Positions 43,926 to 56,485 of a DNA stretch of 64,000 nt are shown here, one piece after another. A model generated the notes under the pieces. That model did no database searches. It was not told where the DNA came from and saw only the letters and a program-made list of their open reading frames with translations. The translations under genes and the position numbers were made by a program. Source of the DNA: Monosiga brevicollis MX1 (lineage: Eukaryota); the NCBI RefSeq assembly GCF_000002865.3, contig NW_001865079.1, positions 81,858 through 145,857 on the forward strand, read 5' to 3'. Within the stretch, counting starts at the first letter, position 1, and every line of letters starts with the position of its first letter.

Positions 43926-44003
43926 TGGTATCTAAAACTTACCTCTGTTAGTTTAAATTTTTCATCTGACATGTTAATTTATATTACATGTCTTTAAAAT
44001 ATA
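43926..44003 (+). repeat. Left copy of ~78-bp AT-rich direct repeat flanking the giant ORF
   Basis: TGGTATCTAAAACTTACCTCTGTTAGTTTAAATTTTTCATCTGACATGTTAATTTATATTA... matches 56407-56485. Confidence 0.92.
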
Positions 44004-44744
44004 AAGTCGGCACAGGTAGCTTCAGCCCGGCGAGCTGTTTCGGCGACTCGCGCGGACTGGACTGGCGCCTCGGAGCGTGAAGGCATGATGTGCAAAGAGC
44101 GCGCCTGGCGTGCATGTTGAGGCAATAAGGGCATCTACAGTGGAACGGATTCCTCCGAGATACATTCCAAGCAGCTGACAGTTCAAGCCCACCCGTCCCC
44201 ATCATCATTCACTGGCTTGCTTGTATTGTGTTCGCGTGCTTGTAAAACACAGTGAGTGTGCTTGTATCGGCGTGCTTCTCTGTCTGCATTGAAGATCGCA
44301 AGCCATTTGTCTTCACGCAACGCGCGTGTAAAAGTGCTTGCGTCTTTGATCGATTTGTTGGATGTGTACAAAGGTCAGTCGGGGGCGAGCGCTGCTACTT
44401 GGAGTGAGACGGGCAACCGCGATCGGGTAAGTAGACCAGCTTGTTCATCTCGACCCACCTCTCTTTTCCTTTCCTGTCTTTTGCTTCTTCTTCATCATCT
44501 TCTCTCATTCTCAAGCTGTGTACCTCTTTAGACGACAAGCGATCAGACGCCGGTCGTGTCAGACAGTGAAATTCTCAAGTGCTGCTCCCCAAACCGGCCG
44601 TGCAATCGCCGACACTACAGGCAACTGACAGTGAGCGCTTTGCAAAGCCTGCCATGAGCGATCGGCAGCCCTCTGGCAACCCCTCAGCGCACTTCATACA
44701 CCTGGCTCACTGCTGCATTTGCTCCGCCTGCCTCCTACCCAGCA

Positions 44745-47700
44745 ATGCCCGAAGTCGCCGCCGACAAAGGCAAGAACGGACGGCTGTCCAACGCCGCCAA
44801 GGCGGGGCATCGCCGCCACGTCTACCAAAACCCCAAGACCTCGAGGATCGAAAGGGGCTGGATGCAGCAGGAGCTTAATCGTGGCCGCACCTTCAACACT
44901 ATGCGCAACCTACCCGGCACCCACATCGACCACACGAGAAACCATCCTGATTTCTGTCGTACCCAATGGGCGTCAGACAACAGTAGCCGTGGTGCTCGTC
45001 TTGGCAAGGAAGGTGAAGCCATCCGCACCCGTGCACAGCCCAAGGCGCAAACAACGGGATGGAAAGGCCCACGCGGCGGCGGCGGCAGCAGCAGCAGCAG
45101 CGGCATTGGTAAAAGTGTCGGTGCTGGCACTCGTAGCGCTATGCAGGCAGCAAGCCGCACCGCCGCCCGCCAGACTGCACTGCGCACAGGCGCACGGATT
45201 GCTGGCAGATGGCTTGCGGGTGGTGCCGCGCGCGTGCTTCTGTGCAGCGTGCCTGGTGGCGCATTTTTCTCGGCCGCGCTGCTGGCCGTCGACCTCTACA
45301 TGAGCTACTACAACACTTGTGGGGGCGACGATGGTGGCCCCGGTCGTGGAAATCGCGAGATGGCCCGCGATCCGGGTGGGGTAGCCGTTCCTCGTGGAAA
45401 TCTGGAGGCCTTCAGCAAAGCCCCAGAACTTGCCGCCGACGATGCCGCTGCCGTGCTGGCCATTCTTATACCCCGTGCGGAGGCGGAGCTTCAAGGTCTT
45501 CCCTTCAGCTCTCGCACGGGTGACCTGCACTCCGCCGTGGTGCAGATCGTTGTGGCAGAACTCGCCACTAGCATCTACGTCGACAACGCCTACCCGTTTT
45601 TTTCCCTTCATTTCAACAAGGATGCCTGCCTTTACCCCGTGCTGCACCCGCTGCTGCGCGAGACGCTCGTGGGCCACGTCATCGCCACGCTGGACTACTA
45701 CCTCAAGGGGTTCCTCAACGGCGGCGTGTACCCCGTTGAATACCTGATGAACTGGCACGAAGGCAGCTGCGGGGTGCAGCGTGAGGAGCTTAGGCAACAC
45801 GTTGTTGACCTCCGCACCTTGGTGGCAACCCACGGTGGCGAGGGGGTTGCGTATAAGTCACTTCTCGAGATGCTGGCTGAGGCTGGCGTCGCAGACCTTG
45901 TAAGAGGGACCGATCAGCCCGAAGAGGCCACCAGCACCGGCAAAACCACCGACGCATCGGCCAGCAAGTTCCGCACCAGTTTTCGCATTATCGGGACCCT
46001 GGAGCGAGCCGAGCGCGATGGTGACGTCGTCGCCTTGGTGCCCGGTTTTCGTGTCGAATACACGGTGGAGACCACACCTGCTTATCAGAAGGTGTTAGAC
46101 GCTCATCTTGCTGAGCATGGCGTGTACCCAGATGGCTATGCCACTGTGCAGCGTGTGTATGCGCGCGCGGCTCGGGCTGCAGAGCAAGTCATGCCCCGCA
46201 TCCCTCTCTTTGCCCCCTACTTTGCCATGCTCCGCATCATCACAGCCTGCTCCGCACTGGTGACGTCGCTTCGGTCGACAGGGAAACTGCCACTCCTGAG
46301 TCTGCCAGTCGATGCATTCCGCACGGGGGCCAACTGCAAGCTGACACGCCTGACACCTCCTTTGTATCCCCCCCTGCCCGTGCGCTACTACAAGCAGCAC
46401 GTCATTTCGATACGTCTGCTAGACCTCGTCAACCAGCTGCGTGCCAACGACAACCTTTCTGCTCTCACGCTAGACTCGCGTCACACACGAGCCTTTGAGC
46501 CCTCCAAGCTGGATCGTGAGATGGAGAGGCTTTCCTTACGCGTCTTTGAACCAATGGCCGACGTTACTTCCGCCGTCCAAGCTGCTGTTGCTACACTGGC
46601 CCAGCGCCAGCTGCCAAGCGAAGTGGACTTTGCCAGTGTCGACCTGGACGCTCTCCAGACGCACGTTCAAAATCAGTTGACTGCAGTGGCCGACGCTTGG
46701 CCAACAGTGCTGCTGCCCCGAATGATTGTGGATACAACACGGCATTTACTGGCCACGTCCCTCTTTGATGACGAGCCGTCACAGCTGCCAAACGATGGCG
46801 GTGTGGACATTGAAGCTCATGAAAAAGCTGTCAGGGCCAGAATGCCCAGCAAAGAGGTGACGGAGCAGCTACTGCAGCCATTCCTGCGCCGCCTTTCGAC
46901 CATAGACACAGTGCCTGACCGCAGCACTGCCGTCCGCCAGCATTTTGCCGATGAACTCATCACGGCTTTCCGAGCGTCGGCACTGTTTCCTCCGTGCAAG
47001 TTTCGCGAGGAGAGCCGCTTGCGAAAGCAAATTTTGCACACGCAAACTCAGTTGCGTGAAGAGCTCGCCAAAATTGATGTTTATCAACGCAGCATGGAGA
47101 AGGCTACCGAGGAGTACCGGACATCCCAGCTTGAGGCGCTTGCACAGGAGGTCCAGGATCTACATGCAGGCTTTGACCGTCGGGTGCTCGCCGTGCCTCC
47201 CGGCTGTGCCGTTGACCCAGCCGCAGTACAAGCCTTTCGGCAGTGGCTAGCCGATCAGGAACGACAGTCGCGTCAGCAGATTGAGGAAAGAGTGCAGCGC
47301 CAGGTTACAAGCAATGCCCAGGCTTTGGATGACGCTCGTCGCGATGTCAATCAGAAGGTGCAGAAGTTCATCCAAGGAATCGAACATACACTGCAGGTGG
47401 AGCCAGAAAAGCGACTCATGGGCATCCTCTCGGAAAAAGCTTCAGCATATTCATCTCAGCTTGCGGATGGAATTGTCCAGCTTCATGCCCGCCAGTCGGC
47501 TATCATTTTCCTTGACGACAAGACGATAAAGGGAAGAGTCGTGTCTCGCTGCTTGGGCGTGGCGGATCGGAGCTTCCTCAATGGGCATCAGGAGGATCCG
47601 AGGATCATAGGGGGCTGCGGGGTCAGCCTTGAGGACCTAGAGGACAGCCCGCTTTTAGCCACCACCCTATCGACCGCTCAGGCACAACACCTGCGCGTAA

Positions 47701-55781: not shown

Positions 55782-56406
55782 TTGATCGTTGGCTGAATAC
55801 TCGGTTGGCATGCAAAGCACTGTGCATGGCCGTTATAAGGCAGAGAGGACGGTGTTGGCATCAAACTCGTCCTTGAGGGCCGTGCTTCGTGTATTTTGCA
55901 ACGTGGTACAGACCGTCTTGTGTGATAAAGTTGTGTGACTACCGCTGTCTCTTCTTGTTGTGCCACCTGCTGCGGGGCACGATTTCCCTATCCCGGGACA
56001 GTTATTCTAATGGTGCACCTGGTCTGGTCACTACTTGCCGACCACACTGGTCCAATCGACTTGAAGACACCAACAAATCTCTTGTTTCGTTGAGACATCT
56101 CTAATACTCCTGTAAAATGCTTCCTCAACACTTATGCGCCTCCTCGCTACCCAAAACATGCCGTGGAGACGGAGATTGAAATTGGTAAGGAGAAACCTTG
56201 AGAACAGAAACGCACGGTAGAGGTAGGCATCATCGAGGAAATTGAGGCGAAGGCGGTGCTGGAGGTGGCCAATGTATGTGAGGAGCATGTAGCGGGATAG
56301 ATAAACGCGTATGCAACGCGGTGTGACGCCATCAGGTCGCGTAAAGCGGCAAAGGGTCGCCGCTGCGATGGCGGCATGGCAATTCGAAACAATGAACACC
56401 AGAAGG

Positions 56407-56485
56407 TGGTATCTAAAACTTACCTCTGTGAGTTTAAATTTTTCCATCTGACATGTTAATTTATATTATGCACCTTCAAAATGTA
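56407..56485 (+). repeat. Right copy of ~78-bp AT-rich direct repeat
   Basis: TGGTATCTAAAACTTACCTCTGTGAGTTTAAATTTTTCCATCTGACATGTTAATTTATATTA...; same orientation as 43926-44003. Confidence 0.92.

What the first reader, a model, noticed from the sequence alone, without database searches (positions are those of the whole stretch)
43926..56485. Repeat-bounded ~12.5-kb cassette carrying a giant toxin-ankyrin-SecA gene
Seen: two same-orientation AT-rich repeats at 43926-44003 and 56407-56485. Their first ~61 bp differ by only one substitution and one 1-bp indel, and the remaining differences are all transitions. They lie ~740 bp upstream and ~630 bp downstream of the single 11-kb intronless ORF, and I found no third copy in the window. 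Most neighbouring genes are interrupted by introns. Inference: the unit looks like a discrete cargo cassette that is inserted, excised or swapped by recombination between the repeats (att/res-like sites or short LTR-like ends), carrying a bacterial-style conflict gene. No recombinase or transposase is visible here, so any mobilisation would be in trans.
Basis: partly seen in the sequence, partly recalled or inferred. Interest (0 to 1): 0.88.

Follow-up and report, generated by a model that had tools for sequence, protein, structure and literature searches.

The report
Strain-variable giant toxin-like gene cassette
A 12.5-kb block holding one giant, spliced gene sits between two copies of a 65-base sequence in this protist and is cleanly absent, with one copy left, in a related strain; the gene belongs to an apparently undescribed protein family with swappable toxin-type heads, so it is likely a defence or conflict gene gained or lost through ordinary DNA repair rather than a self-mobile element.

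Summary
The repeats are real: 65/66 bp, 3 differences (43922-43986, 56403-56468). A related strain (about 3.5% diverged flanks; one study, two runs) has a single contig that joins the flanks across one repeat copy and skips 12,481 bp. The repeat is not dispersed: two copies in own-strain contigs, one in the other strain. No circle, recombinase, terminal inverted repeat or LTR hallmark was found. The gene is not intronless: RNA contigs show two 5'-UTR introns and a poly(A) end, so the block is one eukaryotic transcription unit. The 3678-aa protein has a likely HNH-type head (lead only), an unnamed ~320-aa domain (345 relatives), ankyrin repeats and a SecA-like ATPase with intact motifs. Relatives in a Legionella, a gammaproteobacterial MAG, dictyostelids and a sponge share the core, and across the family the heads vary (lipase, ADP-ribosyltransferase, AHH, Ntox28). 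Most likely a repair-made insertion with a long target duplication (0.5); loss by annealing between the repeats is the close rival (0.33). There is no outgroup, so direction is open. The scan noted other eukaryotic SecA-like giants on other DNA, but not this family.

The parts
43922..43986 (+). Left repeat core R1 (65 bp, 25% GC)
43987..44004 (+). Diverged tail of R1: 18 bases in purine/pyrimidine register with the bases after R2, 8 transitions; its first bases complete a hairpin with the end of the core
   Evidence: DNA fold of 43915-44008, z -2.6; the same stretch at R2, z -0.3
44001..44744 (+). 5' UTR of the giant gene; RNA contigs begin at 44001 and 44006 (contigs cannot show a true start); in-frame stops upstream of the ATG
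44427..44531 (+). 5'-UTR intron 1 (105 nt, GT..AG)
   Evidence: joints in RNA runs X3 and X4, one study
44631..44742 (+). 5'-UTR intron 2 (112 nt, GT..AG)
44745..55781 (+). Unbroken ORF, 3678 aa
   Evidence: own-strain DNA contigs show no listed difference
44745..45104 (+). N-terminal head, aa 1-120, likely HNH/GH-E-type nuclease (DH at 62-63, N at 79); lead only
   Evidence: atlas hits 0.83-0.85 to HNH and GH-E clusters, below the 0.9 line; Pfam gives only DUF3565, E 6.7e-6; no homologue found; single-sequence model unusable
45234..45290 (+). Most hydrophobic stretch of the protein (aa 164-182), between head and core
45369..46484 (+). PGGV motif (family consensus IGGV, aa 209-213) and unnamed conserved domain X (about aa 256-580)
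   Evidence: 345 relatives at E<=0.001; no Pfam or NCBIfam match; confident model, pLDDT 80
48045..52250 (+). Ankyrin repeat region (about aa 1100-2500)
52947..53448 (+). In-frame 33-bp tandem array (11-aa Pro/Ala/Lys linker, about 11 copies)
53598..55223 (+). SecA-like ATPase, aa 2952-3493; Walker A, DEVD, SGT, motifs V and VI present
55998..56090 (+). Short sequence in the 3' UTR that recurs elsewhere in both strains' contigs (core 55998-56032); poly(A) tail joins after 56077
   Evidence: tables 2, 7, 8; no genomic A-run there
56403..56468 (+). Right repeat core R2 (66 bp)
43975..56455 (.). Span skipped (12,481 bp) by the other strain's contig, leaving one repeat copy
   Evidence: table 5 (run X17); run X16 has zero depth over 44149-55884 and a loose end at 43975 that runs on as the bases after R2

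Best explanation
The block is a presence/absence polymorphism between strains, and it likely arose when a complete, already spliced gene was copied into a unique AT-rich spacer during host break repair or template switching, duplicating 65 bp of the target; its protein is predicted to be a cytosolic conflict effector. Shown: the empty site, two repeat copies against one, the introns and poly(A) end, the domain order, and varied toxin-type heads across the family. Inferred: (1) insertion by host repair, with no element-encoded enzyme, the odd R1 tail being junction scar; (2) the 65-bp repeats now allow clean loss by single-strand annealing; (3) the ankyrins bind a trigger or target, and the SecA-like ATPase with domain X releases or threads a nuclease head against an invading bacterium or virus, or against the infected cell itself.
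For: One contig of run X17 joins 43974 to 56456, and X16 agrees. At 80% likeness only two contigs lie on the repeat in own-strain DNA and one in the other strain, so the repeat is ordinary single-copy DNA at the empty site. The two copies differ at 3 of 65 positions. The other strain's copy differs from R1 at about 4 and from R2 at about 5 (read), and its flanks differ by 3.4-3.7%, which fits duplication near or after the strain split. No inner inverted termini. The first bases of the R1 tail are the reverse complement of the core end, as in templated repair junctions. [quoted passage not shown] Family: 345 relatives; 33 head clusters among 130 heads; toxin-type Pfam heads in 8 of 51 proteins scanned; the SecA module in 8 of 151 other proteins, including named dictyostelid ones.
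Against: No outgroup locus was found, so insertion is chosen on parsimony only. No donor copy or paralogue showed at 85% DNA identity. The transcript fills the block almost end to end and starts beside R1, which would also fit long residence. The 18-base transition-only tail (chance 4e-6 if unrelated, about 0.003 at the observed transition rate) hints at an older duplication than the core suggests. A 65-bp target duplication is long. The empty site rests on one study (two runs; the third run laid nothing). The nuclease call for this head is below the atlas's 0.9 line, and no activity is tested.
Confidence: 0.5

Rival explanations
1. The gene is ancestral at this locus, bounded by an older duplication, and the other strain lost it by single-strand annealing or unequal crossover between the repeats.
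For: The empty allele reads as R1 on the left and as the R2 tail on the right, which is what such a deletion leaves. The gene is fully domesticated (UTR introns, GC3 0.62 against 0.60-0.81 in neighbours). The diverged margins suggest age. No donor copy was seen.
Against: It needs two events (duplication, then loss). The core copies are no further apart than the strains are. The core shows no constraint that would keep old copies alike, since the other strain's copy has 3 or more private changes.
Confidence: 0.33
2. The block is a non-autonomous element moved by a site-specific recombinase in trans; the repeats are attL and attR, each a shared core plus a diverged arm.
For: The empty site is precise. 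A shared core with diverged arms resembles att sites. The core ends in TAA-N6-TTA inside an imperfect inverted repeat, which resembles tyrosine-recombinase sites (resemblance recalled, not tested). R1 folds better than shuffles.
Against: Only two copies in own-strain contigs and no partner element. No circle or empty joint in runs X1 and X2. The hairpin is absent at R2 (z -0.3). No recombinase among the 18 long ORFs scanned. No match in viral contigs, phages or plasmids for domain X. The reviewed TE set of M. brevicollis is three LTR families plus a dead transposon orthologue (PMC6875170, passages).
Confidence: 0.1
3. The repeats are short LTRs of a cargo-carrying retroelement, and the empty site is a solo LTR.
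For: Direct repeats, with one copy left after loss.
Against: The introns are kept in sense orientation, and transcription ends 325 bp before R2. No flanking 4-5 bp target duplication is visible. No other family members.
Confidence: 0.03

Closest known systems
Bacterial polymorphic toxin systems (Zhang et al. 2012, PMC3482391; passages and section 37 read)
   Same: A constant body joined to interchangeable toxin domains; the heads found here (AHH, Ntox28, lipase-like, ADP-ribosyltransferase) and the ankyrin repeats are of the kinds used there.
   Different: The variable domain is N-terminal, not C-terminal. The constant domain X matches no Pfam or NCBIfam model. No immunity gene lies in the block. 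Members occur in eukaryotes as spliced genes.
Amoebophilus APD1/APD2 effectors with SecA-like helicase-related domains (PMC3482391, section 37) and giant actinobacterial toxins with SecA-like ATPases (PMC8195603, passage)
   Same: A SecA-like ATPase used inside a large conflict protein rather than as the housekeeping translocase.
   Different: Different constant domain and order. This one is host-encoded in a protist and has no evident N-terminal hydrophobic signal.
Phage WO eukaryotic association module SecA proteins (PMC5062602, passages)
   Same: SecA-type domains closer to eukaryotic than to ordinary bacterial homologues, in a toxin- and ankyrin-rich setting.
   Different: Phage-borne; domain X found no match in the phage collection.
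Canonical SecA/SecA2
   Same: DEAD, PP-bind and P-loop domains with intact motifs.
   Different: Scores far below the cut-offs (249 against 862 bits), matches only profile positions 60-540 of 789, and is fused behind 2950 other residues.
Repair-made insertions with flanking duplication, and single-strand annealing deletions (PMC8654963, passages)
   Same: Unique target, repeats of 50 bp or more, templated bases at a junction, no element-encoded enzyme.
   Different: Here the cargo is a whole 12-kb transcription unit and the result is a strain polymorphism.

Membership tests
Polymorphic toxin system | Constant body with interchangeable toxin domains | tested here: met
   33 clusters among 130 heads before the IGGV motif; lipase, Scabin-like, AHH and Ntox28 heads in 8 of 51 scanned; the same head types fall in distant parts of the domain X tree
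Polymorphic toxin system | Toxin domain at the C-terminus | tested here: not met
   Variable domains are N-terminal
Polymorphic toxin system | This protein's own variable domain is a toxin | tested here: inconclusive
   HNH/GH-E atlas hits at 0.83-0.85; no Pfam toxin match; model pLDDT 53
Polymorphic toxin system | Adjacent immunity gene and orphan cassettes | not tested
   No second gene is evident in the block; no genuine bacterial locus was obtained (one search gave two weak hits)
Site-specific (tyrosine recombinase) integrative element | Precise empty site with one core copy | tested here: met
Site-specific (tyrosine recombinase) integrative element | Recombinase gene in the element | tested here: not met
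   One gene only, with no recombinase domain
Site-specific (tyrosine recombinase) integrative element | Excised circle | tested here: inconclusive
   No such joint in X1 or X2, but contigs drop rare forms
Site-specific (tyrosine recombinase) integrative element | Recombinase or sister elements elsewhere in the genome | not testable with these tools
   No whole genome is held; contig laying shows only two copies at 80%
LTR retroelement / TRIM | LTR family with short target duplication; intron-free RNA-derived cargo | tested here: not met
   Two copies only, introns kept, no flanking short duplication seen
Cut-and-paste DNA transposon | Terminal inverted repeats | tested here: not met
   The best inverted match between the inner ends scores 15 and is not terminal
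Canonical SecA | Full-length match above the curated cut-off | tested here: not met

The most novel reading that the evidence does not exclude
An undescribed 'reverse' polymorphic toxin system (swappable N-terminal toxin head, IGGV motif, a domain of unmatched fold, ankyrins, optional SecA motor) has passed between intracellular bacteria and protists or sponges, and this choanoflagellate keeps its copy as an excisable cassette that a trans-acting recombinase moves in and out at a dedicated site.
Probability: 0.1. Interest if true: 0.9.

Novelty: new variant of a known kind. Interest (0 to 1): 0.62.

Why it matters
It is a clean, PCR-testable case of a whole candidate defence gene that is present in one strain of a close animal relative and absent in another, so the two strains form a natural presence/absence pair for infection tests. 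Apart from the cassette, the protein defines a family of at least 345 members with an unnamed domain and swappable toxin-type heads, shared by bacteria, amoebae, a sponge and this protist. It also offers a handle on what SecA-like motors do in eukaryotic giant proteins. The protein-family part is likelier to hold (about 0.7) than the mobile-element part (about 0.1).

Tried and rejected
Whole-genome search: no genome held. Repeat motif in metagenome contigs: 0 hits. A 17-base part of it in viral contigs: 2 hits, not followed, likely chance. Rfam over 43000-57500: 4 matches, all far below gathering scores. No tRNA or tmRNA in the window. The idea that the repeat is the first coding exon of the CRAL-TRIO gene (minus-strand ATG and GTAAGT donor in R1) was dropped: that gene appears to start near 42920. 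No RNA contig covered R1 in X3 or X4, which proves nothing either way. A snRNA-like or hairpin role was dropped because the fold is not kept at R2 and the core is not conserved between strains. Recent mitochondrial origin of the repeat: no extra contig at 80%. Outgroup synteny through the CRAL-TRIO exon: 169 candidates, 0 confirmed. No run is on record as RNA; X3 and X4 are judged RNA from their spliced joints. Run X18 laid nothing (no proof of absence). Domain X: no Foldseek match at E<=0.001 in PDB or BFVD; best VIA-align Z 3.8 among 48,161 chains, which shows neither a new nor a different fold; no usable atlas hit; the profile search of PDB returned ankyrin-repeat proteins in the 60 rows shown of 620; nothing in viral contigs, plasmids or phages; two weak genome hits. 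A recalled likeness to DUF1598 did not appear among the 25 of 64 families shown. The tree gives no donor: support 0.68 with three dictyostelid proteins. Papers: no description of this family or locus in searches (open-access library only; supplements of PMC3482391 were not read and may list such architectures).

Full report
Observation. The two repeats are there. BLASTN aligns 43922-43986 with 56403-56468 at 95.5% over 66 columns (E 7e-22): two substitutions and one indel, no third copy in the window. They are 25-27% GC in 51-56% GC surroundings and form the only long-range, non-simple exact 20-mer repeat in the 64 kb. The next 18 bases match in purine/pyrimidine pattern, with 8 mismatches, all transitions. 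Between them is one 3678-aa ORF with ankyrin repeats and SecA domains. Earlier notes name the genome as the choanoflagellate Monosiga brevicollis. I did not test that name; the intron-rich genes and a Tyr/Ser-Thr kinase domain fit it.

Empty site. No whole genome is held, so I laid public contigs on the locus (runs). In run X17, a DNA run under the same species label but another organism code, one 1808-base contig covers 43660-43974 and continues at 56456-57899, skipping 12,481 bases and leaving one repeat copy. Run X16, from the same study, has zero depth over 44149-55884 and a loose end at 43975 that continues as the bases after R2. A third run of that study laid nothing. So the empty site rests on two runs of one study. 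The flanks differ from the window at 49 of 1444 and 12 of 326 bases, plus indels: this is another strain or a sibling species. Own-strain DNA runs X1 and X2 (one study; X2 may be the window's source) cover the block at single-copy depth, with no empty-site or circle joint. Contigs drop rare forms, so this is weak evidence. At 80% likeness exactly two X2 contigs lie on the repeat (the two known places) and one X17 contig. The repeat is therefore not a dispersed element.

The gene. Two runs of one study (X3, X4) splice out 44427-44531 and 44631-44742, both GT..AG. In-frame stops upstream of the ATG place both introns in the 5' UTR. RNA contigs begin at 44001 and 44006, next to R1, and X3 ends in a non-genomic A-tail after 56077. 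The block is thus one eukaryotic transcription unit plus 325 bp. GC3 is 0.62, within the 0.60-0.81 of neighbouring frames, though less C-biased than most. This is not fresh bacterial DNA and not a retrocopy.

The protein. Residues about 256-580 form a domain (X) with 345 relatives at E<=0.001, of which 150 were listed. It matches no Pfam or NCBIfam model. It folds confidently (pLDDT 80) but found no clear structural match. Among 152 proteins held, 123 also matched the second ankyrin block and 9, this one included, the SecA part; many are cut at contig ends. Of 22 relatives looked up or returned with names, those with an organism named are three dictyostelids, the sponge Ephydatia, Legionella nautarum and a gammaproteobacterial MAG; most have no name. 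Upstream of X lies a conserved IGGV motif (PGGV here). The 130 heads that could be cut out before it (14 near-duplicate cluster members left out) fall into 33 clusters, the largest with 64. Pfam names toxin-type heads in 4 of 17 proteins (2 lipase, 2 Scabin-like) and 4 of 34 (1 AHH, 3 Ntox28, where only five families per protein were shown). On a FastTree tree of X (152 sequences, 336 columns) lipase heads, Scabin-like heads and SecA tails each fall in separate clades, which suggests shuffling. The window protein groups with the dictyostelids at only 0.68, inside a mixed clade of 17 at 0.97, so no donor can be named. Its own head has a DH...N pattern and draws HNH and GH-E clusters at 0.83-0.85, a lead only; it has no detected homologue and no usable model. 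The SecA part keeps its ATPase motifs but is truncated and far below the SecA cut-offs.

Mechanism. For the DNA, three readings remain. (a) Insertion with target duplication through host repair (0.5). It is one event; the copies differ at 3 of 65 positions, no more than the strains do; and the first bases of the R1 tail are the reverse complement of the core end, like a templated junction. (b) Ancestral presence and loss by annealing between the repeats (0.33). The empty allele has exactly that left-R1, right-R2 make-up; repeats of about 50 bp suffice (PMC8654963, passages); the gene looks long settled; and the transition-only tail is hard to get by chance. (c) A recombinase-moved cassette (0.1). 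The site is precise and has a TAA-N6-TTA inverted pattern (a recalled resemblance), but there is no sister element, circle, inner inverted terminus or enzyme, and the hairpin is missing at R2. An outgroup search failed, so (a) and (b) cannot be separated. Under both, host repair is enough. For the protein I infer a cytosolic conflict effector: ankyrins bind a trigger or target, and the SecA-like motor with domain X and the hydrophobic stretch at aa 164-182 releases or threads a nuclease head. None of this is tested.

Comparison. It works like a polymorphic toxin (PMC3482391, passages and section 37) with the polarity reversed, but it fails the C-terminal criterion, and immunity genes were not tested. 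SecA-like domains in conflict proteins are in print for Amoebophilus effectors, actinobacterial giant toxins (PMC8195603, passage) and phage WO (PMC5062602, passages). My searches of the open-access library found no description of this family or locus; I did not read supplements. The known M. brevicollis transposons are three LTR families (PMC6875170, passages), which do not fit. Earlier notes of this scan describe other eukaryotic SecA-like giants with a GTPase; none covers this locus or domain X.

Verdict. A real, strain-variable block with a precise empty site, carrying a domesticated member of an apparently undescribed family with swappable toxin-type heads. Dedicated mobility is not supported. 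New variant of a known kind; interest 0.62.

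Noticed in passing
window 43322-43457: A 116-bp stretch of 22% GC lies between two exact 10-bp direct repeats (43322 and 43448): possibly a second, small insertion with a target duplication, 460 bp left of R1. Six-frame reading under table 4 gave no open frame.
   Followed up: partly
window 55998-56090: A short sequence in the 3' UTR recurs at other loci in both strains; one 52-base RNA contig of depth 25,000 matches it. 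No Rfam match and no unusual fold. It may be a piece of an expressed repeat or small RNA.
   Followed up: partly
window 56950-57025: Imperfect 76-bp palindrome in the right flank, inside the span that the other strain's contig also covers.
   Followed up: no
window 13131-13325: Three tandem 65-bp units, 72-78% alike: duplications of the same length as R occur elsewhere in this genome.
   Followed up: no
window 10840-11660: Tandem array of 75-bp units inside a minus-strand ORF (10960-12051).
   Followed up: no
window-wide: TCTGACA/TGTCAGA occurs 19 times against about 11 expected, twice within the repeats and several times in AT-rich stretches; possibly a promoter motif.
   Followed up: partly
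P0005: A family member with TPR repeats and a C-terminal OTU protease in place of SecA: the tail module varies as well as the head.
   Followed up: no
P0037: The Heterostelium protein is named a SecA subunit by its source, but its 2159-aa model has no SecA match; perhaps a split gene model.
   Followed up: no
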